IMG/VR virus record: IMGVR_UViG_3300045135_000745
Span: 15,885-79,884 of that record
Strand: one strand, 5' to 3'
DNA: 64,000 bases
DNA from: a virus
In this document: positions 10,697 through 35,972 of the stretch, in pieces
How positions within the stretch are numbered: the first letter of the stretch is position 1
Layout of the letters: each line of letters starts with the position of its first letter
Program-made: the position numbers and the translations under genes
The notes under the pieces: model-generated
Database searches by the model: none
What the model was told of the DNA's origin: nothing
What the model saw: the letters and a program-made list of their open reading frames with translations, nothing else

Positions 10697-10757
10697 GACT
10701 CTTTCCCTTTGAGTTTGAATGATATGTTTTTCATGATACGATTATATTCATTACTTC

Positions 10758-10765
10758 TATTTATA
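10758..10765 (-). promoter_or_regulatory. Late promoter for gp18-gp19
   Basis: TATAAATA on the minus strand in the intergenic region. Confidence 0.75.
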
Positions 10766-10777
10766 AGAAATTATATT

Positions 10778-12394: not shown

Positions 12395-12758
12395 CTTTTA
12401 ATCGTGGTGTAATATCCACCACGTTATTCTCCACCTGTTTAGCATTTGCATCTTGAAGCATACGCTGTAAATCTGTTGTTGAGCCAATATAAACATTATT
12501 AGTAGTTTGCCCGGCGGGTAACTGGGGTTGTTCCTTAACGTTAATATCTTTATGCTTCTTATTCAGATCCATAAGCTTATCGTTAACATCGGCGACGTTT
12601 TTAATAAGCCCAGACAATACTTCGAATGCACGCGGGTGCTCGCTTTCGCGTGCGACCTCAATCATATCTTCTAGAGCATTTCGACCTTTGTTAATTAGAT
12701 CGAATAAAGTGTCTCTCGAGTATTCATAGTCATTTTTAATTCTATCAGAATCAGACAT
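12387..12758 (-). CDS. gp16: Terminase small subunit (likely start ATG 12758)
   Basis: DYEYSRDTL...ESEHPRAFEV...TTNNVYIGSTTDLQRML. Confidence 0.93.
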   Translation of the reverse strand: MSDSDRIKNDYEYSRDTLFDLINKGRNALEDMIEVARESEHPRAFEVLSGLIKNVADVNDKLMDLNKKHKDINVKEQPQLPAGQTTNNVYIGSTTDLQRMLQDANAKQVENNVVDITPRLKDE

Positions 12759-13605: not shown

Positions 13606-14522
13606 TACTGTGGATCTCCAAACGGATTGCTTTCACTGAAGTCTAAGAAACCCATGTCTGTGTCAGTGGTATCAAAGAAGTCATTCTTTTCGTTTTCTGC
13701 TAATTGATTCACTTCAGACACCGCCGTGGCAGAAGCGATAGAAAGAAGAGGGTCTACAATAGATCCTGATGAATCTTTATCTTCAGTACCGATGATCTGT
13801 CTACCGGTTACAAACGTATGATAGTTACCGTCATCTGCACCCACATGAATAAGGTGCAAGATATTATCTGAATCAGAGAACGCTGCAACTTCGCCTGATA
13901 CGATTGTTCCAGTTGACAGTGTCTGATTGACAGTCTCACCGATCGACCATCCAAACGAAGCGCTATCAAGTGTGACGAGATACTTGTAAGCATAGTCACG
14001 TTCAACCGTATCAATAGCATCTACACCGGTATCAAGATTTTCACCGCTGTACTCAAAGAGTTCACAACGTAACTTATAAGTAGGTAGGTTACTGAGCTGA
14101 TAGAAAGGTTGTTCGTGCTCTACAGCCATAATCTGGAACATAGAATTTGATAGTGGCAGATAAATTACGTCGCCCTCAAGCGGTCTAATTGCCTGAATCT
14201 CGTTGTCGTACCTTGCCACAGTTTGTGACCAGCGCTTGCGAGCTACAATGAAAGTAGCTTGGTCACGAATCTCTACCCCAAACTTAGTGAAAAGATCTCC
14301 TTCACCGTCAAAACCTTCCGTGTTCTCTATGTACATCTCTACTTTATAAGAAGAGTTGAAGCTTGATTGGATATCTTCACCGAGGATTTTATCTTCAGTT
14401 ACTAAATCTCTTGGCAGATAATAAACGTCTTGACCATAGATCTTAAGAGATTCTATGATAATATCTTCGTATAGATTTTGTTCTGATTTAACCTTTTGGC
14501 TAAAGTAGTGGTTAGTTGCCAT
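13605..14522 (-). CDS. gp14: Neck protein
   Basis: EQNLYEDIIIESLKIYGQDVYYLPR, LFTKFGVEIRD, RPLEGDVIYLP, DFSESNPFG. Confidence 0.96.
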   Translation of the reverse strand: MATNHYFSQKVKSEQNLYEDIIIESLKIYGQDVYYLPRDLVTEDKILGEDIQSSFNSSYKVEMYIENTEGFDGEGDLFTKFGVEIRDQATFIVARKRWSQTVARYDNEIQAIRPLEGDVIYLPLSNSMFQIMAVEHEQPFYQLSNLPTYKLRCELFEYSGENLDTGVDAIDTVERDYAYKYLVTLDSASFGWSIGETVNQTLSTGTIVSGEVAAFSDSDNILHLIHVGADDGNYHTFVTGRQIIGTEDKDSSGSIVDPLLSIASATAVSEVNQLAENEKNDFFDTTDTDMGFLDFSESNPFGDPQ

Positions 14523-14526
14523 TTTC

Positions 14527-15282
14527 TTATCCTACGAAGAAGTCTGCGGGCATCTCAAAGTCCATGCGAATCTTTTCTCTTAGACGCTCAATCTCTTGTA
14601 GTGCGTCTTCGAAGATCTGTCTACCGTTAAGTGTCACACCACCAGGCATCTGCATTCCTTCAAACTTAATTAGGTTTGCACCCCATTGGTGTTTAATTAA
14701 GGCGGTGGTATATTCTTTTAACCACATATCATTCCATACTTTAGAGTGTGCACTAGAATCTACAGTCTTAAATGCTTCATATACAATATAATCTCCCGCC
14801 TCTACGTCTTTATCATTAAAGTCGCCATGAAGATATAATCGGTTCATTTTACGGGAATAGGTAGTCTGTGGTTCTCCATTAAGCTTCATATCCAGAAGTG
14901 AAAGGTATTGGTTAAGCTGCTCATAGTACGCCAAGTCACCCGAAAAGTTTTGCATATCTGCAATATCATTTAACATCATCTGATATTTAATATCAAAGAA
15001 GTTAAATGAAGTATTAAAACTCGATGAAATACGGAACATCCTACTTACGTAGATCACATCATTTGGAACAGTGACATATTCATTCGATACGTCACTGTCA
15101 CCTACAAGCTGTGATACATATGTTCTATATGTTGCATCACTATGAAACTCTTGCCAGTACTGTAGGGCTTCATCGACACGGTCCTCTAGTTGATCAATAT
15201 CCACATTGATCTCGATAACCGGATCACCAAGTCTTCTTAAACAGTAATCAATGAGACCTTGTCTGCTAGATGGATTCGCCAT
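14527..15282 (-). CDS. gp13: Neck protein
   Basis: LIDYCLRRLGDPVIEINVD, WLKEYTTALIKHQWGANLIKF, PGGVTLNG. Confidence 0.97.
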   Translation of the reverse strand: MANPSSRQGLIDYCLRRLGDPVIEINVDIDQLEDRVDEALQYWQEFHSDATYRTYVSQLVGDSDVSNEYVTVPNDVIYVSRMFRISSSFNTSFNFFDIKYQMMLNDIADMQNFSGDLAYYEQLNQYLSLLDMKLNGEPQTTYSRKMNRLYLHGDFNDKDVEAGDYIVYEAFKTVDSSAHSKVWNDMWLKEYTTALIKHQWGANLIKFEGMQMPGGVTLNGRQIFEDALQEIERLREKIRMDFEMPADFFVG

Positions 15283-15311: not shown

Positions 15312-15312
15312 T

Positions 15313-16904: not shown

Positions 16905-16914
16905 ATTCTACCCC

Positions 16915-18372: not shown

Positions 18373-18382
18373 TTTCTATACC

Positions 18383-19036: not shown

Positions 19037-19100
19037 AGTAATTCCTTAAAAAAGGGTTTAGTTTAGAGTCTGGAATATAAAAATATCCCAGACTTTCAGT

Positions 19101-19108
19101 TATTTATA
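19101..19108 (-). promoter_or_regulatory. Late promoter
   Basis: TATAAATA on the minus strand between the 19110 and 18383 genes. Confidence 0.7.
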
Positions 19109-19109
19109 A

Positions 19110-20967: not shown

Positions 20968-21324
20968 TTACCTCGTGACCGACGGTGTTACTTCAAGATT
21001 TCCTTCCAATACTCTTTCAATGATAGTGTTTCCGGCACTATCATTATAAGAGATTTCCACATCATAAACCCAACGTCCAGGCTTCATAGCATCCGTCTGG
21101 GCGTTGGTTAATTCTAAAACTAATTTTCCGAGGGGTCTATTAACTTCTGTAAGGGTAGCAGTGAAATTTACCGTATTATCGCTATCTGCGTTATACGATC
21201 TTTTCGCCTTAGCTGCTGCACTAAAGCCATTCAAATTTTTTACAGATCCATCTTTATCGAGTAGTTCTAACTCGATTGCTACATCGGCGCCTTGGTCGAT
21301 AGTGAATTCTTCGAATTGAGCCAT
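20968..21324 (-). CDS. Virion structural protein (BppU-like N-terminal fold)
   Basis: IDQGAD...LNGFSAAA...LELTNAQT..MKPGRWVYDVEI...RVLEG...VTPSVTR family common in T4-like aquatic phages. Confidence 0.75.
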   Translation of the reverse strand: MAQFEEFTIDQGADVAIELELLDKDGSVKNLNGFSAAAKAKRSYNADSDNTVNFTATLTEVNRPLGKLVLELTNAQTDAMKPGRWVYDVEISYNDSAGNTIIERVLEGNLEVTPSVTR

Positions 21325-21349: not shown

Positions 21350-21357
21350 TATTTATA
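21350..21357 (-). promoter_or_regulatory. Late promoter
   Basis: TATAAATA on the minus strand about 26 nt upstream of the 21324 start. Confidence 0.75.
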
Positions 21358-21431: not shown

Positions 21432-22445
21432 TTATTCGGAGGGGGTTATATAACTATCAAGTAACCAAGTAGAAATCTGATTGTTAATCAGATGATCAAT
21501 CTTATCATAATTGTAGTTTGACCGAGGTAATCTATCTAATTCTTCTTTTAGCGTATTGTAGATCTTTTTCAACTTTTCTAATGATAGATTCCAAATAGCA
21601 CAGTGCTCCGGATATCGAATAGTATTGTACCAAAGCTTGACGTGGTGCTTGTGAGTCCATCTCGCAAACTCTACCATCTCATCCCAATTTTGTCGCATTG
21701 GATTAACCATAATGGAAAGATCCCGGTTACCCTCTTTACAGTACTTATTAAAGATCTCGAAGTTTTTAAATAACATCTGTAGATCGCCGTTAATACGGAT
21801 CTCAGCATAACGTTCAGGAATAAGACTATCAATGGAGATGTTGATATGGATGTTGCACATATCTAGGATTTTCTGAACACGCTTATTATACACTGTGCCA
21901 TTTGTAGCGATATTAACTTTTAATCCTGGATTTAGTTCAGCAACATCTTCACAGATATCAAGAACAATCTTCTGTGCAAATGGTTCACCACCATTGAATC
22001 GTAATTCTTCCAGGTGTGGTATAAACTCTCTTAGCTGCTCACGGAATGATTCATCATAGATCTGTGGTAAAGGCGGTAGCTTATCACGATTCTTACGAAT
22101 GCCAGAAGATAGTACACCAGAACACATAACACATTCTAGGTTACATTGGTTACTCAGTTCCAGTTCCATGAGACTGGGATATTCTTTTACAGTAAACTGA
22201 TCGTAAGCCTTTGCAAGCGGCCAAACGCCATTGTCAATATCTTTCTTACACTCTGCACACTTACCGAGAAACACGTCATTAGCAATATTATCTCTGATTC
22301 GTTGATAGTGCTCGCCAAACCAAATATCACGAATAGATCTTTCTGGTGACCAACGATCAATAGCACCAACAGTAAGCCAGCAAGGTGCAACTGTACCAAA
22401 TACAGTAAAGTACATGTTATTGACTGGTGCTTTACATATAGGCAT
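21432..22445 (-). CDS. Radical SAM enzyme with N-terminal twitch/SPASM domain
   Basis: N-terminal C..P...GTVAPC...CAEC; core CNLECVMC (CxxxCxxC), GGEPF, TNGT, ISIDS. Confidence 0.92.
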   Translation of the reverse strand: MPICKAPVNNMYFTVFGTVAPCWLTVGAIDRWSPERSIRDIWFGEHYQRIRDNIANDVFLGKCAECKKDIDNGVWPLAKAYDQFTVKEYPSLMELELSNQCNLECVMCSGVLSSGIRKNRDKLPPLPQIYDESFREQLREFIPHLEELRFNGGEPFAQKIVLDICEDVAELNPGLKVNIATNGTVYNKRVQKILDMCNIHINISIDSLIPERYAEIRINGDLQMLFKNFEIFNKYCKEGNRDLSIMVNPMRQNWDEMVEFARWTHKHHVKLWYNTIRYPEHCAIWNLSLEKLKKIYNTLKEELDRLPRSNYNYDKIDHLINNQISTWLLDSYITPSE

Positions 22446-23565
22446 AAATTAATTCACTCCATGCAGGATAAACTTCTTTAAAATCCTCTTGTCTGATTTT
22501 ATCTAAGAATTCGGTTTCTTTTATAAAATTTTGATCCCATGATATATCACTCATCATGAAAAGAATGATTGCTTTGAATCTAGGATCTGACCCGTGTTTA
22601 TTTAAGATTTCAATTTTAATCTTGGAATGTAGATTCTTAATACAAAGCCATCCAGGACCATGGAGTATATTGTTTACTGTCAGAATATCATTATCATCTG
22701 CCCAATCGAATAATTCGTGAAGATCCCATATATTATAATTGTTAATTGTTGGATGTAGTTTCAAATCAATATCATCATACGATCTAAGTTTTAAAATATT
22801 TTTTTCAATAGTTTTCCAATTAGCCGCGTGACGTTGATATTCTAATCTTTCTCCTATATCGTCAATACTGACTAATACCTTTACCTCTTTAAACTTTAGT
22901 AAACCATTAATCATGGATTGATTTAAAATGCTACCGTTCGTAGTAATAAGAACTGTAATATTTTTTGCATATTCTGATTGAGAAATTATCTCTATCATTC
23001 TTTTTGATTCAGGACTTACGAATGGTTCACCGCCAGTGAATTCAATCTGTTCTAAATGTGGTAATACTTTATCGAAGAAATACTTTTCGTTTTTAGTACC
23101 AAGAATCTTATTTGACAAATAATAATCTTCATCTTCTCTAACAAATCCGCGGAAAACTTTATCCTCTTTTAGTATTAAACTACTGTAAGAGTAATCACAC
23201 ATTCTACATTTAAAATTACAGACATTACTCAATTTCAAATCAAAAAATTTGGGCGTATCTGCTTCTAATGTATATTTTTTTTCTTCCAAATAAACATCAT
23301 TATAGATTTGTCTTAAACTTCTAAATCCGGCTTTCTCTTCTTCCCAGCAAGATGAACATTCTGCGATCTTTTTATTATCTAAAAATGCTTGCCTGATCTT
23401 CTTGAAATCGTTACCGTTCCAGATCCCTTCATAAGTGTCGTCTTTCAAAGATCCGGTGGGGTAATTGAATTGACTACGCTTTTCTGCAAACTTACAGCAT
23501 GGACGCACCAATCCTTCATTATCAGATGTGATACCAATCCATGGCATTACACAAAAATTATTCAT
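22432..23565 (-). CDS. Radical SAM enzyme with N-terminal twitch/SPASM domain (likely start 23565)
   Basis: FCVMPW...GLVRPCC...CSSCW; core CNFKCRMC, GGEPF, TTNGS, VSIDD. Confidence 0.92.
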   Translation of the reverse strand: MNNFCVMPWIGITSDNEGLVRPCCKFAEKRSQFNYPTGSLKDDTYEGIWNGNDFKKIRQAFLDNKKIAECSSCWEEEKAGFRSLRQIYNDVYLEEKKYTLEADTPKFFDLKLSNVCNFKCRMCDYSYSSLILKEDKVFRGFVREDEDYYLSNKILGTKNEKYFFDKVLPHLEQIEFTGGEPFVSPESKRMIEIISQSEYAKNITVLITTNGSILNQSMINGLLKFKEVKVLVSIDDIGERLEYQRHAANWKTIEKNILKLRSYDDIDLKLHPTINNYNIWDLHELFDWADDNDILTVNNILHGPGWLCIKNLHSKIKIEILNKHGSDPRFKAIILFMMSDISWDQNFIKETEFLDKIRQEDFKEVYPAWSELIYAYM

Positions 23566-23956
23566 CGTTTTTCTTTGTACAGTATTTCTCACATTGTCTT
23601 ATAATCCGGTTAGGACTATCCCAAGATTCTGGCAACGTTTTTGTAAACCATTCACTTCCTATAATTTCCTCTAACCCCACGTTATGGATATTATATTTTT
23701 CTTTATTGGTATAATATTGCATTAGTGTATTATCTGCAAAAGTTTCATGCTGGATGATATTACGATCCCCGATTTGATTGCTGATATTATTTTCTCTTAC
23801 CGGTCTATCTTCTGGCACATCAAGTTTATCGAACATATAAATCACGTTTGCTAAATAACAGCATGGTAATACTTGTCCATCGGGATTAATTAGCAATCTT
23901 TTCGATTCCATCCACTGGCATCTGACGTTCATCTTATTTTCATTCAGTTGCTTCAT
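23558..23956 (-). CDS. Stand-alone SPASM/twitch Fe-S domain protein (likely start 23956)
   Basis: RCQW...INPDGQVLPCCY...LEEII.SEWF..LPESWD...QCEKYC; no radical SAM core. Confidence 0.8.
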   Translation of the reverse strand: MKQLNENKMNVRCQWMESKRLLINPDGQVLPCCYLANVIYMFDKLDVPEDRPVRENNISNQIGDRNIIQHETFADNTLMQYYTNKEKYNIHNVGLEEIIGSEWFTKTLPESWDSPNRIIRQCEKYCTKKNDE

Positions 23957-24377
23957 TTTTTCTCGGCCTGGATTTGTTAGGATGGTAATGTTCCGCATTA
24001 ACCGAACAATATTTTTTACAAAGTCTATGTGTTAGATTTTCATCGTCCCAAGATTCTGGCAATGTCTTAGTAAACCATTCGTGATTTAAAATATCTTCTA
24101 ATGAATTATTGTGAAGATTTAATTTATCTTTATCCTTAAAATATTCTATAGCCAGATATGGATTTCTACTTTTATCGTTTCTAACAGCATCTTTTTTAAA
24201 TTTCCCGCCACCATATACCATTTCATCTGGAAAATCTTTTTCAAGATCCGGACCGAAAAAATTCACCATTGAAAAAGAATTAGCAAGATAGCAACATGGA
24301 TACACTTGACCATCGATGTTTACTAATGCATTATTCTTTGCCATCCATTCACAGCGTATTTTTTGTCGATTCTTCAT
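23940..24377 (-). CDS. Stand-alone SPASM/twitch Fe-S domain protein, paralog of 23558-23956
   Basis: RCEW...VNIDGQVYPCCY...LEDILNHEWFTKTLPESWD...LCKKYC. Confidence 0.8.
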   Translation of the reverse strand: MKNRQKIRCEWMAKNNALVNIDGQVYPCCYLANSFSMVNFFGPDLEKDFPDEMVYGGGKFKKDAVRNDKSRNPYLAIEYFKDKDKLNLHNNSLEDILNHEWFTKTLPESWDDENLTHRLCKKYCSVNAEHYHPNKSRPRKNEATE

Positions 24378-25134
24378 ATATAATCCTCATATGTTCATCG
24401 TCATATAGATGCCAAGTCTTCCAATAGAAATCGCTGTTTTTTAGACTCGTCTTTTCTAAGACCTTTTCCATTCCAGTTTTATCGATGAATTTAAACTGTT
24501 GATTTTTATAGAATCTATTCGATTGAACATAGAAGATATCTTCAGCCCCATAGTCTTTAACCATCTGAGCAATATTGTAAAGATCTTTTTCGTTGTGTTT
24601 AAAAGTTACTGTAAACACCTGACTTAAACCACCTGCTGCTGAGAAGGTTTCCATATTCTCTAATATCAAATCCAAATTAGTATCTTGACGATATAAAGAA
24701 TGCTGGTCCTGTGTAATACCTTCGACTGCCCACATAACGGTAATTCTTTTTTTACCTAATAAACCAAACTCCCACCACCAATCCGGATTTCTAAAACTTC
24801 CGTTTGTATTAACCAATACGTTGGCTGATGAATAATCCATGATATATTTAACAATTTCAAATATATCTTTATTCATAATGGGATCACCCCAAGTACCACA
24901 TATGTCAAAATGGTTAATGTGCTGGAGAGTCTTTCTAGGAAACATCTTCTTAAATTCTTCAAAAGACCATTGCACTAAAGGTAACCAATCTGCTTTAACT
25001 AATCCGTTTGCATTTGTTCTATGACACTGCGGACATTTCGCATTACAATATGTAGAAAGATCCAACCACATCCCCAATTTCTTTTTTTCGTACTGGGTAT
25101 TATAATTTTCAATCTGTGGTAATAAATCTTCCAT
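24349..25134 (-). CDS. Radical SAM core protein lacking an attached SPASM domain (likely start 25134)
   Basis: DLSTYCNAKCPQCHR, CGTWGDP, TNGS, AVEG, FKHNE. Confidence 0.9.
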   Translation of the reverse strand: MEDLLPQIENYNTQYEKKKLGMWLDLSTYCNAKCPQCHRTNANGLVKADWLPLVQWSFEEFKKMFPRKTLQHINHFDICGTWGDPIMNKDIFEIVKYIMDYSSANVLVNTNGSFRNPDWWWEFGLLGKKRITVMWAVEGITQDQHSLYRQDTNLDLILENMETFSAAGGLSQVFTVTFKHNEKDLYNIAQMVKDYGAEDIFYVQSNRFYKNQQFKFIDKTGMEKVLEKTSLKNSDFYWKTWHLYDDEHMRIIYEESTKNTL

Positions 25135-25795
25135 AATCTTTCCATTCATGTGGCTTATTCGTACTTCGAGTAAAGTGAACCATCTTTATATCTTGATGAA
25201 AGTCATTACCGTCGTAAAGTTTGTTCCCGGTAATTTCGAAATATTTATCCTCGATTTTTTGAGTGCTAATATCTGGATCACTTATCCATCGGGTAAACCA
25301 AGCATCTGGCATAAGTGTTACGTCCATTCCGTATAGACTATCCTGGACAAACATGAATTCACCATTCACTGGGCCAATGGTTAAACCAGCTTTAATATAG
25401 TAGTTTGTATAGTATGGAATATCGCTCATAAACTTTTCATAAATGTGTCGAGTTCTACTTGGCCAAAACTTATAAAATCCACCAGCCATTTTAAATGGTG
25501 TTCCATTAAAGTTCCACCAATATGGAATAGAAACAAATTCATTCTTTGCACATGGATAATTAATCACTTCATGGTAGTCGTGAATCAGTAGCTTATCGAT
25601 ATCCATTACAATTACAGGTTCGTCGATATCCATACCGAAGACTTGTAACTTATTCCATTGCAGCGGAACCCACTTATGAAAAGGTTCACGAATCCAATGG
25701 ACGTCGTGACCTTCTAATTTACTGTTAATATAATCTTCATATTCAGGACCGTACTTTGTTCCGATCCTCACACAGAATACTTTCAAAGGAACCAT
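25109..25795 (-). CDS. Putative GT-A glycosyltransferase
   Basis: VFCVRIGTKYGPEY, WNKL, DxD (MDID), C-terminal MVHF...KPH; paralog of 27250-27897. Confidence 0.78.
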   Translation of the reverse strand: MVPLKVFCVRIGTKYGPEYEDYINSKLEGHDVHWIREPFHKWVPLQWNKLQVFGMDIDEPVIVMDIDKLLIHDYHEVINYPCAKNEFVSIPYWWNFNGTPFKMAGGFYKFWPSRTRHIYEKFMSDIPYYTNYYIKAGLTIGPVNGEFMFVQDSLYGMDVTLMPDAWFTRWISDPDISTQKIEDKYFEITGNKLYDGNDFHQDIKMVHFTRSTNKPHEWKDYGRFITTD

Positions 25796-26655
25796 TCCAT
25801 TTTTTTATTAATGCAGTGATATAGCTTTGCGTGCGGATCACAAGCATTTACATTCTTTTTCTTTTCGTCTACAATATAATGCCATGGACCATTTAGATAT
25901 TCAATTGGGATATCTTTCGAATGAACAAGATAAGAGAACAAAGTTTCATTATCATAACCGAATACGCGCCGAATGTTGTATGGGTACATGGAATCTTCGT
26001 CGGTCTTTAGCTCTGTCATAAGATCCAAATTCTCACGGAAGTTCTCGAAGTAACCTAGCTTCTTGATAGTCTCGGATGATGCAACCATAATACCCGTATT
26101 AAACACATCGTTATCTGGTTCATATCCTTCTTCCAATAGCATTGCATGAGCATTCCAATACTTAGTGGAAGGATTACGAATACACGTATTATAGTTTTTA
26201 GGATCTACAGTCTTACCCCAGTGCGCAAGCGCATTCGAGTTCGCGCACCCGAACTTATTCTCAATATCATGAGCTGCAAAGATACAATCAGTGGTATTCG
26301 GTACAACGTCAAAATCCAAATAACATACAGCATCGTACTCGGCTGCCATATTACGCATTGTCCAATGCTTATAAAAGTTCACGATATCGTAATGTGAAAC
26401 CTCTGGATAGTCAGTCTCAAACATTTCTATAAAGTCTTGATATTCTTTATCCCATTCGTATAAACGATAATCAGCACCAATAGCTTTAGCATACTGTTTA
26501 TGACGTTCTATGATCTTATCATAGTTATTTAATAAAGCCAACTTTGTCTGCAGGCTTTTATCTGTCTGAACCTGTACATCGTTTTCAAACCAACCGGGAT
26601 TATCTAACTTATCTTCGGGAATGTCTATGAATACGCTATAAACTATTTTCTTCAT
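25783..26655 (-). CDS. Putative GT-A glycosyltransferase (GT8/GT34-like)
   Basis: YAKAIGADY, FYKH, YLDFDVV (DxD), FNTGIMV, DNET, LYHCINK. Confidence 0.8.
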   Translation of the reverse strand: MKKIVYSVFIDIPEDKLDNPGWFENDVQVQTDKSLQTKLALLNNYDKIIERHKQYAKAIGADYRLYEWDKEYQDFIEMFETDYPEVSHYDIVNFYKHWTMRNMAAEYDAVCYLDFDVVPNTTDCIFAAHDIENKFGCANSNALAHWGKTVDPKNYNTCIRNPSTKYWNAHAMLLEEGYEPDNDVFNTGIMVASSETIKKLGYFENFRENLDLMTELKTDEDSMYPYNIRRVFGYDNETLFSYLVHSKDIPIEYLNGPWHYIVDEKKKNVNACDPHAKLYHCINKKMEWFL

Positions 26656-27275
26656 TTGCCGATTACCATATGTCTATTAAAGTCGCCTAAATTTAATGTG
26701 CCAGTATAAGCAACATAATCTAGATTTAAATCAACAGCAAACAATTCTGCATCTGGCCAACAATTAATATGTGCATCTAAAGCAGTATAGTCATTTGTCT
26801 GAAAACAAATCCACGTGTCTTTCGGCTTATTCTTGATAATGCTTATAAGATCTTCCTGCTCCATATGCTCACAACTTGTATTAATAATAGCCGTGTATGG
26901 AGAGTAATCAGGCTTTTCATTTACATCTAATGTTTCGAATGCAATATCCTGATCATGGAATAGTTCCCAGCCGTAGAAGTCACACATTGGGTCCATATCG
27001 CTAGATGTAATATTCATACTGGCATTCGGCCATAGCTTTCGCAGCTGATAAGCCATCATACCGTACCAACCACCTACTACAAGAAGATTACCATTTGGGT
27101 TGTTATAATGCTTATAGAATTCTTTCGCTAGCCACTCTTTACCTTCCCAGTGATTCTTATCCACTGAGTGCACAAGATCTTTAATACGAAATAGATCGTC
27201 GACCCCGTACATAGATTCATCATAAACTTTTTCGCAGAGCTTAAGAACTCTATTTAAGATCGTCGAGTCCAACAT
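26652..27275 (-). CDS. Class I SAM-dependent methyltransferase
   Basis: KEWL, motif I LLVVGGWYG, SDMDP, INTSCEHM, QTNDY...HINC, RHMVIG. Confidence 0.8.
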   Translation of the reverse strand: MLDSTILNRVLKLCEKVYDESMYGVDDLFRIKDLVHSVDKNHWEGKEWLAKEFYKHYNNPNGNLLVVGGWYGMMAYQLRKLWPNASMNITSSDMDPMCDFYGWELFHDQDIAFETLDVNEKPDYSPYTAIINTSCEHMEQEDLISIIKNKPKDTWICFQTNDYTALDAHINCWPDAELFAVDLNLDYVAYTGTLNLGDFNRHMVIGK

Positions 27276-27897
27276 TAATCTCCTCGAATGTCAATACACA
27301 TGGGTCATAATCTACTTCAGGCTGATACTTCTTGGATTGAATGTATTTTTTATCGAAGACAAAATTATTTACACTAAAATCTTCATGTACCAGATATCGG
27401 TCGATCCCCACATATTTACGCATGAAATAATCACGGAAACCTGACTCGTTAAAGTGTGTCCAGTATTCTTGCATAGCTTCATTTGAAGCGTCCCAAGTCA
27501 TTACTGAGCTGTTAATACGTACATCGTAGTTAGCTAGTCGATCGTATAACTTACCTTGCTTCCAGTGTGAATGCACAAGGGTAAGTTTTTCCCAATCACG
27601 TGGATCATCGTGAATGAGCGGATCCTTTAAAATCTTCACATCTAAGTCAAAGAAATATGTTTTACCTTTAAACGGCATCTCCAGATCAAATAAACGTAGT
27701 TTGTTCCACACGCCTTTTAAAGTTGGCCGCCCCAGAGGCGGTATAATGTTTACCTCAGGGTCAATATCTGTTGGATCGTCGGTATAACAGAAGAATTGGA
27801 ATTCTGCTTTTGTTAATCTTTTAATATCATGATAAAGCTTGTTTACGAAGTCTGCACTATACTTCGGGCCAAACTTCACACAGATCACATTATACAT
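27250..27897 (-). CDS. Putative GT-A glycosyltransferase
   Basis: NVICVKFGPKYSADFVNKLY, FFCYTDDP, WNKLRLF, FFDLDV (DxD), INSSVMTW, GIDRYL. Confidence 0.82.
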   Translation of the reverse strand: MYNVICVKFGPKYSADFVNKLYHDIKRLTKAEFQFFCYTDDPTDIDPEVNIIPPLGRPTLKGVWNKLRLFDLEMPFKGKTYFFDLDVKILKDPLIHDDPRDWEKLTLVHSHWKQGKLYDRLANYDVRINSSVMTWDASNEAMQEYWTHFNESGFRDYFMRKYVGIDRYLVHEDFSVNNFVFDKKYIQSKKYQPEVDYDPCVLTFEEINVGLDDLK

Positions 27898-27899
27898 TA

Positions 27900-28538
27900 T
27901 TATTCCCTTGCAGAGATATAGATCTTAAATAATTCCCATAAAGATTTTGATTTTCTAACTGATAACTTAAGCTGTTTATCTTTAGATTTACCGATAATAG
28001 GATCTTCAAGAATAGCAATCTTAGCATTAAATACAAAATCATCATCTCGATCTTTGGAATCTATAATTGATAAAAGATCTTTAGCATTAATCTCAGAGGA
28101 TTTTGGACCGGCTGTAACGAATTTATCCTGAAGCTTTTTTCTAAGTTCAGAAAATTCTTCTTGAACTTCTTCAAACTTTTTCAGTTTTTCTTGCTCTGCA
28201 TATTGGTCTAAGTCACGATATCTTTTTTCTGCATAAGAATCGATATCTTCGTAGGCTTTTTGAATTTTAGATTGTTCAGCGGCCCAACGACGATCGATTT
28301 CATCATTAATCATTTTTTCAAATACATCAGACTCAACCTTTAAAGCTGCTTGAGTATTTTTCTCAATCTCTTCTAAGGTTAATTCCTGTAATAGATCGTT
28401 AAAATCGTTTGATGTGAAATCGACTTCTAAAATATAAGGAATTACTTTATCTTCTTCCTGATAAAGTAATTCAATAATCATATTATTCGGTAGATCTATA
28501 AATTTTGCGGAAATAATTCTTTCGCTAAAAATAGCCAT
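27900..28538 (-). CDS. Hypothetical coiled-coil protein heading the modification operon
   Basis: 212-aa ORF, E/K-rich central helix, 2 nt from the next gene. Confidence 0.7.
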   Translation of the reverse strand: MAIFSERIISAKFIDLPNNMIIELLYQEEDKVIPYILEVDFTSNDFNDLLQELTLEEIEKNTQAALKVESDVFEKMINDEIDRRWAAEQSKIQKAYEDIDSYAEKRYRDLDQYAEQEKLKKFEEVQEEFSELRKKLQDKFVTAGPKSSEINAKDLLSIIDSKDRDDDFVFNAKIAILEDPIIGKSKDKQLKLSVRKSKSLWELFKIYISARE

Positions 28539-28558
28539 AATAAATTCACGTCCTTATA

Positions 28559-29488
28559 TTAAACTTGTGTAACTCTCAAATAGTATGTAGAGATTGTAGT
28601 TGCAGTACCGCTGGGAACTTCTTGCGTGCGGTAATCATCCGTATTTACAAATCTAGTAAGATAGGTAGAACTATTTAGTTTAGTATCGGTCATAGCTGTA
28701 CCGCGGTTATTACCTGTACCATTTATATTATATGAAATTTTAGTACCAGTAATTTCTGCAGCATAATAACGCATCATACTTTGTAATGCTGTTTCAAACG
28801 TTGCCGAAGGGGTTTGATAAAGATTTGTACCAGATTTGGTATAACAAATAGGAAGCTGATGTCCTGCAGCGGCGGCAGAATTAACTCTATGTAAATAATA
28901 GTTTGTAATAGTAGTTGGCTGATCTTGAGTTTCCGGAATACCGGAAGCTGTATATGCCGCAGCATTTGCTCGAGTATCGGTAAACACCGGCGTTGCTGAT
29001 ACTAATGTAGCTCCAGCAACTGAAGAGGATGTTGAAATAAAATATGTGCCGGCTTGCGCTGTTCCTGTTGACCCTGTTGTAAGACTATCGATTGCTGGAT
29101 AAATGAATGTGTCTGCAAAATCTGTTGCAGTCATTTCCCTTAAATCACCAGCATCATAGTATAATGGGTAGGAATAAGATGCGTCAGTCCACGATACTTC
29201 AGATGTATCATATGTTTGATTCATTTTAGAATAATTAACGGTTACAGTAGATACATCAGGGGTTTCAGCTGGTGTATCATAATCAACTGGATCAGTCGTG
29301 CCTGCCCCAGCTTGTAAACGAGTATCGGATATTGTCCCTAAAGAACCACCAGAAGCTACAACCGATAATGTTACAGATGGATTTAAACCGTAAAGTCTGA
29401 TTGCCTCGGTTTGGATTGCAGTGATTTCTCCAGCTGACATTTCTTTTAAATTGCTGCCGTCAAGTTTTAAAGGAGTTCTAACCGCCAT
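28559..29488 (-). CDS. Virion structural protein (309 aa)
   Basis: T/S/A/G-rich, repeated L.EM(S/T) and DTR motifs; located among fibre genes. Confidence 0.65.
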   Translation of the reverse strand: MAVRTPLKLDGSNLKEMSAGEITAIQTEAIRLYGLNPSVTLSVVASGGSLGTISDTRLQAGAGTTDPVDYDTPAETPDVSTVTVNYSKMNQTYDTSEVSWTDASYSYPLYYDAGDLREMTATDFADTFIYPAIDSLTTGSTGTAQAGTYFISTSSSVAGATLVSATPVFTDTRANAAAYTASGIPETQDQPTTITNYYLHRVNSAAAAGHQLPICYTKSGTNLYQTPSATFETALQSMMRYYAAEITGTKISYNINGTGNNRGTAMTDTKLNSSTYLTRFVNTDDYRTQEVPSGTATTISTYYLRVTQV

Positions 29489-30108: not shown

Positions 30109-30311
30109 TATAGTTTCTCTATGATCTGGGTTAGCATGGATTTGATATCATTAACATCTTGTTTCAACTGTTCAATTTCCTGCTTCTGCCTGTTACGATT
30201 CTCTTTTGCTTTCCTAGCCATATTAATTTCAGAGGTATTTATATTAATAATTGCACCGGTTTTCGGATCTCTTCCAAATCCCGGCGCGTTATCAGCTTTT
30301 AGTATTTTCAT
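30108..30311 (-). CDS. Small conserved hypothetical protein (67 aa)
   Basis: RDPKTGAIININ...LKQDVNDIKSML family that follows VrlC-like genes in T4-like phages. Confidence 0.75.
   Translation of the reverse strand: MKILKADNAPGFGRDPKTGAIININTSEINMARKAKENRNRQKQEIEQLKQDVNDIKSMLTQIIEKL
30236..30243 (-). promoter_or_regulatory. Candidate internal late promoter for fibre genes plus the modification operon
   Basis: TATAAATA on the minus strand inside the 67-aa gene. Confidence 0.45.
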
Positions 30312-33300
30312 TATACTGCCAATGCGATTGTTCTAATATCCTTAAACACTGGCACCTTCGCTTGATTTTCTGAAACCATAACAATTTTTATTTGTAATTG
30401 ATTGAAAGCATCCAGTGTACCAGTATTACCTCCAATCAGATATTCATATTCTCTGAATACTTCCGGATTTTCATCACTGATTAGTCCTGACGTAGAAGTA
30501 ATTGCTGTCCATGAAAGGTCGGAGATATTATCATCACCGGAAGCTACTCTATAATACACGTCGAATGAAGCTGCATTAGGCTTATTAGCAGTAATGAATA
30601 ACTTCATACCAACAGCATCTTGCGCTAGAGTAATAACTTTACTTATATGCTTAGCAACTGATGAACCACCCTTCGGATCTGTTTCTGCTACGTAGTTAAT
30701 TGGTACGTTAAATCCTGCAGCAGGTGAAGCTGCCGGCTTATCAATAATATTATTAATAGCAAGAACCGAAGCTCTTTGCATATCAATAACTGGTGAAACT
30801 TTTTTATCTGTTGTCTGAAGACCTATTTTCAGATTAAAGCTTTTTGCGCCGCTGAGATATGTAGTTTCATTATTACCATTTGCGATCATCTGAGGAGCAT
30901 CGAATGCAATATTTTTACCAATAGTCATAGGCGTATAAGTTGAAGCTTGCTGATAAGCAGTTTCTGTACCAGCAATCGATTGTGCCGTAGTGGTTTTAAT
31001 CGATGCAGTAATAGATGTTTCAGTAGGTCTTAAAGTTGCAAGACTGATATTAGCAATATCCATCAAAATGTTTTGGTCTGCTAAGATAGCTGATCCGCCA
31101 CCAATTTCTGCAGAAGTAGCATCAGAATCTGCTTCAAATTGATAACCAGTTGCATCTACTACTGTAATAGTTCTAGCGCCATTAATGGAAGAAGCACTAA
31201 TGCCAGCCATGTCTGTTGCGCCTGAGATATTAACCGTATCGCCAACTGCAAATCCATGATTAGGTTGATACACCGAGATTGTTGCATCAGCAGAATCAAC
31301 TGATAATGGATCTTCAGTTAATAGTTTCTGTGGAACAGAAGCGTTGTTAAGAACAACCTCACCGTAACTGGTATTGAATGCTGCAGTGTAGATATGTATT
31401 TTCATATCTTCCCACTGAGTAGCTGTCCAAGTTGAGTTATTCTGAGATTTAAACAAGGAGCCTAAGAATGGCTGCTTAACAACTTTCTTATCTGTTGTAC
31501 CTAATACATAATCACCAACTTTAGAAATAAAGACTCTATACGTCGGAACAGAAGAAATAAGAACGAAGCAGTATTCCTTATTAGGATTCAAATAAACCGG
31601 TTCTTCGAATTCGAATGTAGTTGCTACGCTCGCATCATCCGATACTGTAATTTCAGATGGGAATTTAAATACTGTTGAACCTCCGATAACCTCAGAAGTC
31701 GGATACCCGTTTTCAATAGCACGAATTTGACCCCAAACTGGAGCAGTGCCAGTATCTTTTTCTGCAAAATACACATCAACTTTTGTAGCAAATACGCCAT
31801 TAGTATTAGAAATAAAGAATGATTGTGCTAATGGATCCGATCTATTGTGGGCCAGTAATCCATTCGCAAAATATGTATTGTTACCATCTAAGATAAAGTT
31901 ATAGACTGTCTGTTCTGGCTCATCAGAGAATACCTCTAATGATTCAACCAGCATCCAAGAACCGTCTTCCATAAGGATTTCATCACCAACCTGAAGATCT
32001 TTAACATCTAAGAAACCCATTTCAGGGAACTGATACGCAAAAGTTTCAGCAGAGTATGATCTCCAGCCATTCTTGGTAAAGAGCGGGTGTTCGGGGGTCA
32101 TGAATGGACCATTACCATTAATACCAATGAAATCTCTTCCATCTAATGCTGGATGGTCAAATTCAAGAACAGTATTGATAGCGCCATCTTGACCCAGAAG
32201 TTTTTCACCGATCTCAACATCTTCAATCTTTTTCTTAGTGCCATCAGCCATAGTGATAAGAGTCCCGGCAATAAAGCAAGAACGTTCAATAGGAGGCGCT
32301 GGCGGTCTTGGTGGTGGCGGGGGCGGAGTAACCACTGGCGGCGGTGGCGGATTAGTTGTAGTTCCAATAACCCTACTAGACGAACTACTAGTAGTTCTTT
32401 GGCTACTAACAACCTCCAATACTCTAGTGCTTAAAACATCTCTTTGTCTTGTCTGTAGCGTACCAGCAGCAGTAAAAACTTGTCTTCCATAGGAGGTAGA
32501 AAATTCGATATTATTAAGATCAGTTATGTCAATTAGTTCAAAGTCTCTGCTACCAGTTCTAAATCTAAAGTTAGCTGTCGACGGAATAAAGAATGAACCT
32601 TCTATATTGCCATTAGCATCAGCAATTAAAGATGAAGAACCTTCTGGATGGCCAAGTGCAGTATTTTCAGTATTACCGAATGTAGTCGTATCATCAGAAG
32701 CACGAGTAAAGGTTTCTGCCCTACACCAATCTGATACATCAATACCGTCAAAGAATGGGAATACTTCAGTATCAGGTCTAAACCCTTGGCCTCTGAAATA
32801 TACTTTTCTCGATCTCATGAATGGGATAGAAACTCCTTGGACTAATCTATCACCGACGATCTCTGTGATAGTAGTTTCACCTACAATTCTATTATTACCG
32901 GTGGTGGTAGAAGACCATGAGTTTCGAATAGTTTCTGTACCACCAGTACCGAAATCTCCAGCAGTATTATTAACAGAAGTGCTAGAACCACCGCTAGAAC
33001 TTAATGTGATGGTGTTTGTAACCGACCCAACTTGCAATTGATCTAGCGGAGTACCTCCCCAATTCCACTGATGGGCATTCCAAAGGTTTGCCCCGGAAGT
33101 ATCTAATTGAGTTTGATTTACAATCGCATCTGGTTGATACTCTTGTTCAATCCAGTTATCGCTCGCTGGTGAAAGTGCAATATTACCGTCGAATCTAATA
33201 GTCCAATATGGAAGAACATTTTCTGTGCCACTGGCCTGCGATTGATTGATATATGACTCGTGGGCATATTTAAGGTAAATATTATCACCCTTTTTAATCA

Positions 33301-35956: not shown

Positions 35957-35972
35957 TCGTTAATCCGTTTTC

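What the first reader, a model, noticed from the sequence alone, without database searches (positions are those of the whole stretch)
21432..28538. Glycosyltransferase / methyltransferase / radical-SAM operon inside the virion genes: candidate virion glycosylation and glycan-tailoring system
Seen: ten tightly coupled, mostly overlapping genes (coiled-coil protein, GT-A, class I MTase, GT-A, GT-A, rSAM core, SPASM, SPASM, twitch-rSAM, twitch-rSAM). They lie on the same strand as, and between, fibre genes. I saw no promoter of their own, so they would be read from upstream TATAAATA late promoters (38355, possibly 30236). Known: twitch/SPASM rSAM enzymes include sugar-acting oxidases such as BtrN, and some mycobacteriophages glycosylate their virions with GTs encoded among structural genes. 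DNA-modifying enzymes in T4-like phages are normally prereplicative and lie with replication genes. Inference: this operon builds and then chemically tailors (oxidises, epimerises or methylates) a glycan on virion proteins. See the linked D-S-[D/A] finding for the candidate acceptor site.
Basis: partly seen in the sequence, partly recalled or inferred. Interest (0 to 1): 0.92.

Follow-up and report, generated by a model that had tools for sequence, protein, structure and literature searches.

The report
Phage tail glycosylation gene module
An uncultured marine T4-like phage carries, among its tail-fibre genes, three sugar-transferring enzymes, a SAM-dependent transferase and five radical-SAM genes; phages with these sugar transferases mostly also have a D-S-[D/A] tripeptide enriched across their outer tail proteins, which suggests but does not prove that the phage glycosylates its own tail.

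Summary
Ten overlapping minus-strand genes lie at 21432-28538, between fibre-type genes, with no promoter motif of their own.

- **Glycosyltransferases:** p2, p4 and p5 are retaining GT-A enzymes with invariant DxD motifs.
- **p3:** a class I SAM-fold transferase.
- **Radical SAM genes:** p9 and p10 have an N-terminal twitch domain (NF033640). p6 plus p7/p8 is a split core and twitch enzyme. Eight relatives encode it as one ORF.

Across about 200 related viral contigs, s309-p1-p2-p3-p4(-p5) is a stable part of the structural module behind VrlC. The radical SAM cassettes are optional add-ons.

Of 71 contigs with a callable state:

| | D-S-[D/A] enriched in VrlC | not enriched |
|---|---|---|
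| GT-positive | 35 | 3 |
| GT-negative | 0 | 33 |

- The enrichment is at protein level and spans non-homologous outer tail, neck and baseplate proteins.
- It spares capsid, tube, hub and the enzymes.
- The contrasts reduce to few independent events.
- The cultured GT-positive phage Mosig, not among the 71, also lacks the motif.

Virion glycosylation is the best reading (about 0.5). Host-envelope modification, the published view of such clusters, remains a live rival. The radical SAM substrate is unknown.

The parts
27900..28538 (-). p1, 212 aa, fast-evolving protein that always precedes the glycosyltransferases; function unknown
   Evidence: ORF. No Pfam or NCBIfam hit. Weak PHROG match to a tail assembly chaperone, E 0.0075. 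Position conserved in relatives at 24-54% identity.
27250..27897 (-). p2, 215 aa, retaining-type GT-A glycosyltransferase
   Evidence: AF2 pLDDT 92, pTM 0.90. Foldseek matches BoGT6a, GTA/GTB, glycogenin-1 and UGGT, E down to 4e-9, TMq 0.55-0.63. D84 and D86 invariant. PHROG glycosyltransferase hit, E 8.6e-5.
26652..27275 (-). p3, 207 aa, class I SAM-fold transferase (methyl, or possibly aminopropyl/aminocarboxypropyl)
   Evidence: Family profile A5 hits PDB 3dtn methyltransferase at 4e-7, then CntL and spermidine synthases. 637 representative homologues. The Mosig homologue is annotated as a methyltransferase.
25783..26655 (-). p4, 290 aa, GT8-like retaining GT-A glycosyltransferase
   Evidence: AF2 pLDDT 88. 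Foldseek matches XXYLT1, LARGE1, XXT1, LgtC, GT6 enzymes and PBCV-1 A64R. Many homologues carry PF01501. D114 and D116 invariant.
25109..25795 (-). p5, 228 aa, GT-A glycosyltransferase of the same family as p2
   Evidence: hhalign of the p5 family against the p2 family: 95.7%, E 1e-8, 155 columns, with DxD in register. D65 and D67 invariant. Nearest Atlas clusters are named nucleotide-diphospho-sugar transferase.
24349..25149 (-). p6, 266 aa, radical SAM core without an auxiliary-cluster domain; first half of a split enzyme
   Evidence: CX3CX2C at C35/C39/C42. Pfam Radical_SAM 27.9 bits. Matches only positions 103-332 of NF033640. Fused p6+twitch ORFs of 357-392 aa occur in eight relatives.
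23940..24377 (-). p7, 145 aa, stand-alone twitch/SPASM domain protein
   Evidence: PF13186, 28.1 bits. Five Cys in a C...CC...CxxxC pattern. 40% identical to p8. Aligns to the C-terminal part of the fused homologues.
23558..23998 (-). p8, 146 aa (perhaps 132 aa from an internal ATG), second stand-alone twitch/SPASM protein
   Evidence: PF13186, 27 bits. Five Cys. Junction sequence read.
22432..23592 (-). p9, 386 aa, radical SAM enzyme with an N-terminal twitch domain
   Evidence: NF033640, 308.6 bits against a cut-off of 170. SPASM at 14-83 and Radical_SAM at 121-297. All eight cluster Cys are invariant in the family alignment.
21432..22445 (-). p10, 337 aa, second radical SAM enzyme with an N-terminal twitch domain, divergent
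   Evidence: NF033640, 138.2 bits, below the cut-off. SPASM at 4-67 and Radical_SAM at 96-263. 25% identical to p9.
28559..29488 (-). s309, 309-aa Ser/Thr/Ala-rich protein of unknown fold that nearly always lies directly upstream of p1
   Evidence: Synteny over about 60 loci. No PHROG, Pfam or PDB hit.
30236..30243 (-). Nearest upstream TATAAATA late-promoter-like motif, inside the 67-aa ORF behind VrlC
21350..21357 (-). TATAAATA motif in the 107-nt gap after p10; likely start of the next late unit
20968..21324 (-). s118, tail-fibre-assembly-like protein that closes the module in most relatives
   Evidence: phrog_3304, E 1e-15. Synteny.
30311..37316 (-). VrlC-like 1881-aa protein and gp8-like baseplate wedge; the richest D-S-[D/A] carriers and so the candidate acceptors
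   Evidence: 7 sites against 1.6 expected in VrlC, and 7 against 0.4 in gp8-like. PHROG assignments.
8957..15282 (-). gp18 sheath, gp15, gp14 and gp13, further D-S-[D/A] carriers (the span also covers the terminase genes gp17 and gp16: gp17 has no site, gp16 has one)
   Evidence: Site list. PHROG assignments. The three sheath sites lie in the non-conserved stretch 88-271, which takes the place of T4 gp18 residues 87-337. The four gp15 sites lie in a C-terminal extension beyond the conserved 1-221.

Best explanation
The core of the cluster is p2, p3, p4 and p5, probably working with p1 and the upstream s309. I read it as a soluble, cytoplasmic glycosylation module, co-transcribed late with the tail-fibre and baseplate genes. 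The retaining GT-A enzymes would take host nucleotide sugars and build a short O-linked glycan on serine in D-S-[D/A] sites. Those sites lie on outward-facing parts of the sheath, neck, baseplate wedge, VrlC and fibres. The SAM-fold enzyme p3 would then decorate the glycan.

The five radical SAM genes are two N-twitch enzymes (p9, p10) and one split core with two alternative twitch partners (p6 with p7 or p8). They are an exchangeable accessory cassette that would further tailor the product.

Shown here:
- the enzyme folds and their catalytic motifs;
- solubility of all ten proteins;
- the conserved position inside the structural module;
- the absence of a promoter motif of the cluster's own;
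- protein-level enrichment of D-S-[D/A] restricted to outer tail proteins;
- co-occurrence of that enrichment with the GT module.

Inferred only:
- that the motif is the acceptor;
- that serine is the modified atom;
- which GT initiates;
- what the radical SAM enzymes act on.
For: Enzyme identity:
- GT-A folds with invariant DxD motifs.
- SAM fold for p3.
- No hydrophobic segment reaches a 19-residue Kyte-Doolittle mean of 1.6 in p1-p10.

Position and transcription:
- Over 80 loci the order is gp8-like, VrlC, s67, s205, s309, p1, p2, p3, p4, (p5), 0-6 radical SAM genes, then a Tfa-like gene and fibres. It is mostly on the structural strand.
- TATAAATA is enriched in the window and absent inside the unit.
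- In Mosig the cluster is inverted, and TATAAATA lies 5 nt ahead of its first gene.

The motif in the window:
- Outer tail, neck, baseplate and fibre proteins: 35 sites against 7.2 expected.
- Head, tube, terminase and portal: 1 against 1.6.
- The ten enzymes: 0 against 1.1.
- gp6 and hub proteins: 0 against 2.7.
- The 35 sites use 22 distinct 9-mers and all six Ser codons, so this is not a DNA motif.

The motif in relatives:
- DSD is the most enriched tripeptide in 37 GT-positive VrlC proteins (150 against 27.6). DSA gives 111 against 28.6. DSG, DSS, DST, DTD, ESD and NSD are not enriched.
- In 37 GT-negative VrlC proteins DSD and DSA are depleted.
- The sites occupy 40 alignment columns, with D, A or N alternating at the third position. 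GT-negative orthologues have unrelated residues in those columns.
- 71 contigs with a callable state: 35 GT-positive enriched, 3 GT-positive not, 0 GT-negative enriched, 33 GT-negative not.
- gp8-like proteins: GT-positive 34 against 5.6; GT-negative 7 against 11.2.

Exposure:
- The sheath sites lie in the variable region that takes the place of the T4 gp18 stretch holding its protruding domains (domain roles from my own knowledge).

Precedent:
- PBCV-1 A64R appears among the fold matches for p4.
- Cytoplasmic retaining GT-A enzymes that glycosylate proteins include glycogenin (matched), and Lgt1 and TcdB (my own knowledge).
- A D-(S/T)-x O-glycosylation motif operates in Bacteroidetes (PMC8729774).
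Against: - There are no mass or glycan data of any kind.
- On the VrlC tree the GT state needs only 4 changes and the motif state 3. Only about one well-supported concordant contrast exists, so no sign test is possible. Shared ancestry could produce much of the 2x2 table.
- Four GT-positive genomes or contigs lack the enrichment: Mosig, L140, L207, and L093, whose VrlC is a recombinant.
- No single GT family is present in all motif-rich genomes. L104 has only p4. L259-L262 and L268 have only p2/p5-type genes.
- Soluble GT8 enzymes also build LPS cores, LgtC being an example. The literature reads these clusters as host O-chain modifiers (PMC7029224).
- Late timing rests on a consensus motif only.
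Confidence: 0.5

Rival explanations
1. Host-envelope modification. In this reading the GT-A enzymes and the SAM-fold enzyme alter the host's LPS core, O-chain or capsule during infection. The effect would be to block superinfection, or to stop progeny phage from adsorbing to debris. The D-S-[D/A] enrichment would then be an unrelated trait of the same phage lineage.
For: - This is the published interpretation of GT8-rich 'host recognition clusters' in pelagimyophages (PMC7029224) and of similar cyanophage genes (PMC12801897).
- p4 resembles LgtC and other GT8 enzymes that act on lipo-oligosaccharide.
- The Mosig cluster also carries a DegT-type aminotransferase, a carbamoyltransferase and an epimerase, which are typical of surface-polysaccharide pathways, and Mosig has no motif enrichment.
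- Bacterial N-twitch radical SAM genes sit near GT2, acyltransferase_3, epimerase and GDP-mannose dehydratase genes.
Against: - There is no membrane protein, flippase or GT2/Gtr-type component.
- The genes sit in a late structural unit rather than among early genes.
- This reading does not explain why motif enrichment in non-homologous outer tail proteins follows the module.
Confidence: 0.25
2. The radical SAM half acts on protein, not on sugar. In this reading p9, p10 and p6 with p7/p8 introduce cross-links, epimerisations or oxidations into virion proteins or into another phage or host protein. They would work independently of the glycosyltransferases.
For: - The best solved relatives by sequence include the peptide maturases TvgB (8vpo, 4.9e-8), SkfB and CteB, alongside viperin and MoaA.
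- The NCBIfam hit lists mix RiPP maturases with MoaA, viperin and BlsE.
- The cassettes come and go independently of the GT core, and sometimes sit upstream of p2.
- G+C is lower over 22-26 kb (0.34) than in the flanks, as expected for a mobile cassette.
Against: - No precursor-peptide ORF fits: the ten genes overlap one another and only 20 nt separate p1 from s309, so no coding-free gap remains in 21432-28559.
- No RRE domain was found.
- The cassettes are nearly always adjacent to the GT genes, and bacterial family members neighbour glycan genes.
- The D-S-[D/A] enrichment is equally strong in relatives without any radical SAM gene (L104-L116).
Confidence: 0.3
3. DNA hypermodification. In this reading the transferases glycosylate or otherwise decorate phage DNA to evade restriction.
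For: - Phage glycosyltransferases classically act on DNA.
- PMC12801897 raises this possibility for cyanophage glycosyltransferases.
Against: - The folds are GT-A, whereas the T4 alpha- and beta-glucosyltransferases are GT-B (my own knowledge).
- The location is among late fibre genes.
- No ThyA-like hydroxymethylase lies in the 79.9-kb record. That record is only 48% complete, so this point is weak.
Confidence: 0.04
4. The D-S-[D/A] pattern is a structural or lineage-specific sequence habit with no modification behind it, for example metal binding or turn formation. The enzymes would then make a product unrelated to the virion.
For: - About a dozen VrlC sites are semi-conserved columns.
- The association has few independent contrasts.
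Against: - The motif is enriched in many non-homologous proteins of one genome and only in outward-facing ones.
- The third position alternates between D, A and N while D-S is kept.
- Closely similar tripeptides are not enriched.
Confidence: 0.15

Closest known systems
Chlorovirus PBCV-1 capsid glycosylation (A64R and partner enzymes)
   Same: A virus-encoded, cytoplasmic, GT-A-based machinery glycosylates a virion protein at an unusual short sequon. Methyltransferase activity decorates the glycan. The A64R domain is among the fold matches of p4. The remaining details are from my own knowledge.
   Different: PBCV-1 is a eukaryotic virus. Its glycans are N-linked and sit on the major capsid protein. 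Here the capsid protein carries no motif and the candidates are tail, neck and baseplate proteins. PBCV-1 has no radical SAM genes.
Mycobacteriophage virion glycosylation (Freeman et al. 2023, cited in PMC12801897)
   Same: Glycosyltransferase genes lie among phage structural genes and are thought or shown to O-glycosylate virion proteins.
   Different: Those are actinobacteriophage siphoviruses. Per my own knowledge, their acceptors are C-terminal regions of capsid and tail-tube proteins. No three-residue motif, SAM-fold partner or radical SAM cassette is described for them.
Pelagimyophage 'host recognition cluster' (Zaragoza-Solas et al. 2020, PMC7029224)
   Same: It is the same genomic place, between VrlC and gp14. 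It has the same content, GT8-type transferases plus radical SAM cassettes that differ between close relatives. Mosig has p3, p4 and p5 homologues in the same order.
   Different: That paper attributes the genes to host O-chain modification and does not report a virion motif. The window's clade differs from the cultured Pelagibacter phages, which lack the enrichment.
NF033640 N-terminal-twitch radical SAM family
   Same: p9 scores 308.6 bits against a cut-off of 170, with every cluster cysteine conserved.
   Different: I found no characterised member. p10 falls below the cut-off. p6 with p7/p8 has the opposite domain order, core then twitch, and is split into separate genes.
Bacteroidetes general O-glycosylation motif D-(S/T)-(A/I/L/V/M/T/...) (PMC8729774)
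   Same: It is a three-residue D-S-x acceptor motif that evolves easily by point mutation. DSA fits both motifs.
   Different: That system is periplasmic and transfers a glycan en bloc. D at the third position is not in its list. In the phage proteins Thr is not enriched at the second position.

Membership tests
GT-A retaining glycosyltransferase, GT8-like (p4) | GT-A Rossmann-like fold | tested here: met
   AF2 pLDDT 88. 167 PDB matches at E<=0.001, led by GT8, GT34 and GT6 enzymes.
GT-A retaining glycosyltransferase, GT8-like (p4) | DxD metal/nucleotide-sugar motif | tested here: met
   D114 and D116 are invariant in 17 sequences.
GT-A retaining glycosyltransferase, GT8-like (p4) | Pfam PF01501 match | tested here: inconclusive
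   The window protein gives no Pfam hit at E<=0.01. Many homologues at 57-80% identity carry a precomputed PF01501 hit.
GT-A glycosyltransferase (p2 and p5) | GT-A fold and DxD motif | tested here: met
   The p2 model has pLDDT 92 and matches GT6, GT8 and GT24 enzymes. D84/D86 and D65/D67 are invariant. p5 is linked to p2 by hhalign at 95.7%. p5 itself was not folded.
GT-A glycosyltransferase (p2 and p5) | Membership of a curated CAZy or Pfam family | tested here: not met
   No Pfam or NCBIfam hit. Profiles against PDB sequences find nothing. hhalign against the p4 family is not significant.
Class I SAM-dependent methyltransferase (p3) | Rossmann-type SAM-binding core, with a Gly-rich motif I and an acidic residue after strand 2 | tested here: met
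   The profile hits 3dtn at 4e-7 over motif I to post-IV. W70, G72, D93 and D95 are conserved.
Class I SAM-dependent methyltransferase (p3) | Transfers methyl rather than aminopropyl or aminocarboxypropyl | not testable with these tools
   CntL and spermidine synthases score nearly as well as methyltransferases.
NF033640 N_Twi_rSAM | Score over the curated cut-off of 170 bits | tested here: met
   p9 scores 308.6 bits. p10 scores 138.2 bits and so does not meet it. p6 scores 39.9 bits over the core only.
NF033640 N_Twi_rSAM | CX3CX2C motif plus an N-terminal Cys cluster | tested here: met
   In p9, C125/C129/C132 and C14/C32/C33/C79/C82 are invariant. In p10 the corresponding residues are C101/C105/C108 and C4/C22/C63/C66.
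Radical SAM/SPASM-twitch enzyme, split form (p6 + p7/p8) | Core and auxiliary domain belong to one enzyme | tested here: met
   Eight uninterrupted ORFs of 357-392 aa in relatives align to p6 at the N-terminus and to p7/p8 at the C-terminus. Physical association of the split products was not tested.
Gtr-type seroconversion system | Membrane proteins GtrA and GtrC with a GT2 GtrB | tested here: not met
   No transmembrane-grade hydrophobic segment. No such Pfam families.
RiPP biosynthetic cluster | Adjacent precursor-peptide gene and an RRE domain | tested here: not met
   The ten genes overlap one another and only 20 nt separate p1 from s309. No RRE family hit. ORFs under 50 aa nested in other frames were not examined.
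T4-type DNA glucosylation | GT-B alpha/beta-glucosyltransferase plus a hydroxymethylase | tested here: not met
   The folds are GT-A. No PF00303 match in the record, which is only 48% complete.
Phage virion glycosylation system | Glycan covalently bound to virion proteins | not testable with these tools
   Only indirect evidence exists: the motif enrichment and its co-occurrence with the module.

The most novel reading that the evidence does not exclude
An abundant clade of uncultured marine T4-like phages runs its own cytoplasmic, sequon-directed O-glycosylation system. Retaining GT-A enzymes would modify serine in D-S-[D/A] on the exposed surfaces of sheath, neck, baseplate and fibres. A SAM-fold enzyme and swappable radical SAM cassettes, including a previously uncharacterised N-terminal-twitch family and a split core/twitch enzyme, would diversify the glycan. 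The phage tail would then carry a variable sugar coat.
Probability: 0.4. Interest if true: 0.88.

Novelty: new variant of a known kind. Interest (0 to 1): 0.75.

Why it matters
- **Scope of virion glycosylation.** It is documented for chloroviruses and some actinobacteriophages. I found no report of it for T4-like phages of marine Gram-negative hosts.
- **A predictive rule.** A short acceptor motif would let glycosites be predicted from sequence across hundreds of uncultured phages.
- **A different function for the cluster.** The published 'host recognition cluster' genes would act on the phage's own adsorption apparatus rather than on the host surface. That bears on host range, grazing, particle stickiness and antibody or lectin recognition.
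- **An entry point for enzymology.** The N-terminal-twitch radical SAM family (NF033640) has no characterised member that I found. This cluster gives it a concrete biological context and a set of candidate substrates.

Tried and rejected
- blastn of the whole cluster against 50,697 phage records found no match.
- Sequence profiles of the p4, p2 and p5 families against PDB sequences found nothing useful. Structure prediction was needed instead.
- hhalign of p2 against p4 and of p5 against p4 was not significant. I therefore do not claim that p4 shares a family with p2/p5, only the fold class.
- s309 has no PHROG, Pfam or PDB relative. Its role stays open.
- tblastn of p5 against cultured phages found no match. 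p2 found only lone distant copies in C48C1, Mosig and Xoo-sp13. No cultured model of the motif-rich clade was found.
- The independent-pairs test on the VrlC tree had too few contrasts for any statistic.
Bacterial context was taken from genome contigs instead.
- No RNA holder was listed among the public runs.
- PF00303 was not found in the half-complete record.
- Complex prediction was not used. Enzyme-substrate pairs are a poor case for it, and the fused homologues already answer the split-enzyme question.
- A DNA-level origin of the motif was considered and rejected on codon diversity.
- A classic RiPP reading was considered and rejected, because no space exists for a precursor gene.

Full report
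**Setting**

The window is 64 kb of a 79.9-kb IMG/VR virus record judged 48% complete. PHROG assignments give a T4-like map, almost all on the minus strand:
- UvsW and UvsY;
- gp23, gp22, gp21 and gp20;
- gp19 and gp18;
- gp17 and gp16;
- gp15, gp14 and gp13;
- a fibre-assembly gene and fibre-type genes;
- the cluster under study;
- two unknown structural-type genes;
- a 1881-aa VrlC-like protein, then gp8-like, wedge connectors, gp6, gp25 and gp5-like hub proteins.

The closest cultured relatives by gp6 are Phage C48C1 (42% identity) and the Melnitz, HTVC008M and Mosig phages (32-34%). All are filed under Kyanoviridae.

**The observation**

Ten minus-strand ORFs lie at the coordinates given. 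Every junction overlaps by 4 to 59 nt, and p1 starts 20 nt after the upstream gene.

TATAAATA, the T4-type late promoter core, occurs 17 times against 7.6 expected, and no shuffle of 100 reached that count. Minus-strand copies lie at 38355, 36068, 30236 and 21350, and there is none between 21358 and 30235. Sigma-70-like and terminator-like patterns do not exceed shuffles.

**What the proteins are**

Pfam and NCBIfam are silent on p1 to p5, so these needed other evidence.

p4:
- It has hundreds of metagenomic homologues, many carrying PF01501.
- Its AF2 model has pLDDT 88.
- The model matches retaining GT-A enzymes: XXYLT1, LARGE1, XXT1, LgtC, the GT6 blood-group transferases and the PBCV-1 A64R capsid glycosyltransferase.
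- D114 and D116 are invariant.

p2:
- Its model has pLDDT 92.
- It matches BoGT6a, GTA/GTB, glycogenin-1 and the UGGT catalytic domain.
- D84 and D86 are invariant.

p5:
- Its family is homologous to the p2 family (hhalign 95.7%, E 1e-8), with the DxD motifs in register.
- Atlas neighbours are named nucleotide-diphospho-sugar transferases.

p3:
- It has 637 representative homologues.
- Its family profile hits class I SAM-fold structures: 3dtn at 4e-7, then CntL and spermidine synthases.
- The fold is secure. The group it transfers is not.

p9 and p10:
- p9 is a full member of NF033640 (308.6 bits against a cut-off of 170). This is a radical SAM family whose twitch domain sits at the N-terminus. 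p10 is a divergent relative at 138 bits.
- All cluster cysteines are invariant in the family alignment.

p6, p7 and p8:
- p6 is a radical SAM core without an auxiliary domain.
- p7 and p8 are 40% identical stand-alone twitch proteins with five cysteines each.
- Eight relatives encode p6-like and p7/p8-like parts as one uninterrupted ORF of 357-392 aa. The window therefore carries a split enzyme: one core with two alternative twitch partners.

None of the ten proteins has a transmembrane-grade hydrophobic segment.

**Comparative anatomy**

Eighty IMG/VR loci found with the p4 family share one order: gp8-like, VrlC, a 67-aa gene, s205, s309, p1, p2, p3, p4, often p5, then zero to six radical SAM or twitch genes, then a tail-fibre-assembly-like gene and fibres.

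- The core s309-p1-p2-p3-p4 is stable from 30% to 90% identity.
- The radical SAM genes are optional. They vary in number and sometimes lie upstream of p2.
- In a few loci, and in Pelagibacter phage Mosig, the enzyme genes lie on the opposite strand.
- In Mosig a TATAAATA lies 5 nt before the first gene of that inverted unit.
- G+C dips to 0.34 over the radical SAM part.
- Zaragoza-Solas et al. already described this place as a 'host recognition cluster' holding GT8 enzymes and radical SAM cassettes. They attributed it to host O-chain modification (PMC7029224).

Bacterial members of the N-twitch family are widespread. Among 74 neighbouring genes sampled, 14 are further radical SAM genes and 7 carry SPASM. 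Several are GT2 enzymes, methyltransferases, PhyH dioxygenases, acyltransferase_3, an epimerase and a GDP-mannose dehydratase. This fits glycan chemistry but does not prove it.

**The acceptor question**

In the window there are 37 sites against 14.4 expected. By protein group:

| Group | Observed | Expected |
|---|---|---|
| Outer tail, neck, baseplate and fibre proteins | 35 | 7.2 |
| Head, tube, terminase, portal | 1 | 1.6 |
| The ten enzymes | 0 | 1.1 |
| gp6 and hub proteins | 0 | 2.7 |

- The sites use 22 different 9-mers and all six serine codons, so selection acts on the protein.
- The three sheath sites fall in residues 88-271. That is the non-conserved stretch taking the place of T4 gp18 residues 87-337, which form the protruding domains (the domain roles are from my own knowledge).
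- The four gp15 sites lie in a C-terminal extension beyond the conserved domain.

Across relatives:
- In 37 VrlC proteins from GT-bearing contigs, DSD is the single most enriched tripeptide (150 against 27.6), and DSA gives 111 against 28.6. DSG, DSS, DST, DSE, DTD, DTA, ESD and NSD are not enriched.
- In 37 VrlC proteins of the HTVC008M clade, DSD and DSA are depleted.
- The 261 sites fall in 40 alignment columns. D-S is kept and the third residue alternates between D, A and N. GT-negative orthologues show unrelated residues there.
- I added 44 HTVC008M-like and 76 C48C1-like loci, giving 71 dereplicated contigs in which the GT state can be called. Of these, 35 are GT-positive and enriched, 3 are GT-positive and not enriched, none is GT-negative and enriched, and 33 are GT-negative and not enriched.
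- gp8-like proteins behave the same way: 34 against 5.6 in GT-positive contigs, and 7 against 11.2 in GT-negative ones.

**Limits of that test**

- On a VrlC tree the GT state needs only four changes and the motif state three. The C48C1-like GT-negative clade sits beside the GT-positive lineages and gives one good contrast. No statistic is possible.
- Several GT-positive genomes lack the enrichment. Mosig has p3, p4 and three p2/p5-type genes but shows 1 site against 1.7 expected in VrlC and 0 against 0.5 in gp8. L140 and L207 also lack it.
- L093 lacks it too. Its enzymes are 82-92% identical to the window's, but its VrlC is only 35% identical, a recombinant.
- No single GT family is universal among motif-rich genomes. 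L104 has only p4. L259-L262 and L268 have only p2/p5-type genes.
- The link is therefore strong as a pattern but not established as cause.

**Mechanism proposed**

My best reading, at about 0.5, has these steps:
- The module is transcribed late with the fibre genes.
- Its soluble retaining GT-A enzymes use host nucleotide sugars to O-glycosylate serine in D-S-[D/A] on exposed tail, neck and baseplate surfaces before or during assembly.
- p3 decorates the glycan.
- The radical SAM cassettes add lineage-specific tailoring.

Cytoplasmic protein glycosylation by retaining GT-A enzymes has precedents in glycogenin (matched) and in bacterial effector glucosyltransferases (my own knowledge). Virus-encoded GT-A plus methyltransferase chemistry on a virion protein has a precedent in PBCV-1 A64R (and my own knowledge). 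A D-(S/T)-x O-glycosylation motif operates in Bacteroidetes (PMC8729774), although by a periplasmic route.

**Rivals**

- Host-envelope modification stays plausible at about 0.25. It is the published view and fits Mosig. It does not explain the motif pattern or the lack of membrane components.
- The radical SAM enzymes could act on proteins instead of sugars. Their nearest solved relatives include TvgB, SkfB and CteB as well as viperin and MoaA.
- DNA modification is unlikely, given the GT-A folds, the late position and the absence of a hydroxymethylase in the partial record.

**Novelty and value**

The gene cluster as such has been seen before in pelagimyophages. New here:
- fold-level assignment of all three transferases and of the SAM enzyme;
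- recognition that the radical SAM part combines an uncharacterised N-terminal-twitch family with a split core/twitch enzyme that is fused in relatives;
- the finding that a protein-level tripeptide enrichment on outer tail proteins tracks the transferase module across about 70 contigs.

If the glycosylation reading is right, it extends phage virion glycosylation to marine T4-like phages and supplies a predictive acceptor motif. No cultured member of the motif-rich clade was found, so heterologous reconstitution is the practical test.

**Earlier notes of this scan**

First-stage notes on the same genome had already listed three things: the D-S-[D/A] pattern, the cassette, and the split radical SAM enzyme with A-runs at its junctions. 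I tested the first two here. For the third:
- I confirmed the A6 runs at the p6/p7 and p7/p8 junctions. The p8/p9 junction has only five A.
- p7 lies in the +1 frame relative to p6.
- The split is conserved in relatives at 54-70% identity, so it is not a sequencing error.

Noticed in passing
window 24349-24377, 23940-23998 and 23558-23592 (minus strand): The p6/p7 and p7/p8 junctions each hold a run of six A, and the p8/p9 junction holds five. p7 is in the +1 frame relative to p6. Loss of one A in the mRNA would therefore fuse core and twitch, as in the naturally fused homologues. Whether slippage occurs is unknown.
   Followed up: partly
L093 (IMGVR_UViG_3300045135_002159), 1-6256 compared with 7182-20482: This is a mosaic relative. 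Its enzymes and downstream fibre genes are 82-96% identical to the window's, but its VrlC is only 35% identical and carries few D-S-[D/A] sites. That points to recent replacement of VrlC by recombination.
   Followed up: partly
window 12751-13605 (gp15), residues about 221-284: gp15 has a C-terminal extension beyond the conserved domain. It carries four DSD sites within about 55 residues, the densest cluster in the window.
   Followed up: partly
window 29491-30108 (s205): The 205-aa protein holds an exact tandem duplication of a 34-residue segment. Related segments recur many times in the long fibre proteins of relatives, seen as multiple s205 hits downstream of s118 in L103-L116.
   Followed up: no
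window 22000-26000: G+C falls to 0.34 over the radical SAM genes, against 0.37-0.40 in the flanks. This fits a cassette that moves between phages.
   Followed up: no
L001 (Mosig) 1641-1677: A 35-nt divergent intergenic region holds three overlapping TATAAATA motifs, one on the plus strand and two on the minus strand. It lies ahead of the inverted enzyme cluster and of its divergent neighbour.
   Followed up: partly
window 15304-15317 and 6401-6414: There are pairs of overlapping or back-to-back TATAAATA motifs in intergenic regions ahead of gp13 and near the portal and protease genes.
   Followed up: no
L171 (HTVC008M) 15453-16028: HTVC008M encodes a 'spermidine synthase-like protein (methyltransferase domain)' outside the fibre cluster. 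The p3 family profile did not match it at E<=0.001.
   Followed up: partly
L260 8622-16607: This is a variant architecture. A minus-strand block of five small genes includes p5-like and p2-like transferases. It faces a plus-strand array of four p9-like radical SAM genes of 375-480 aa, and no p4 homologue is present. VrlC is still motif-rich.
   Followed up: partly
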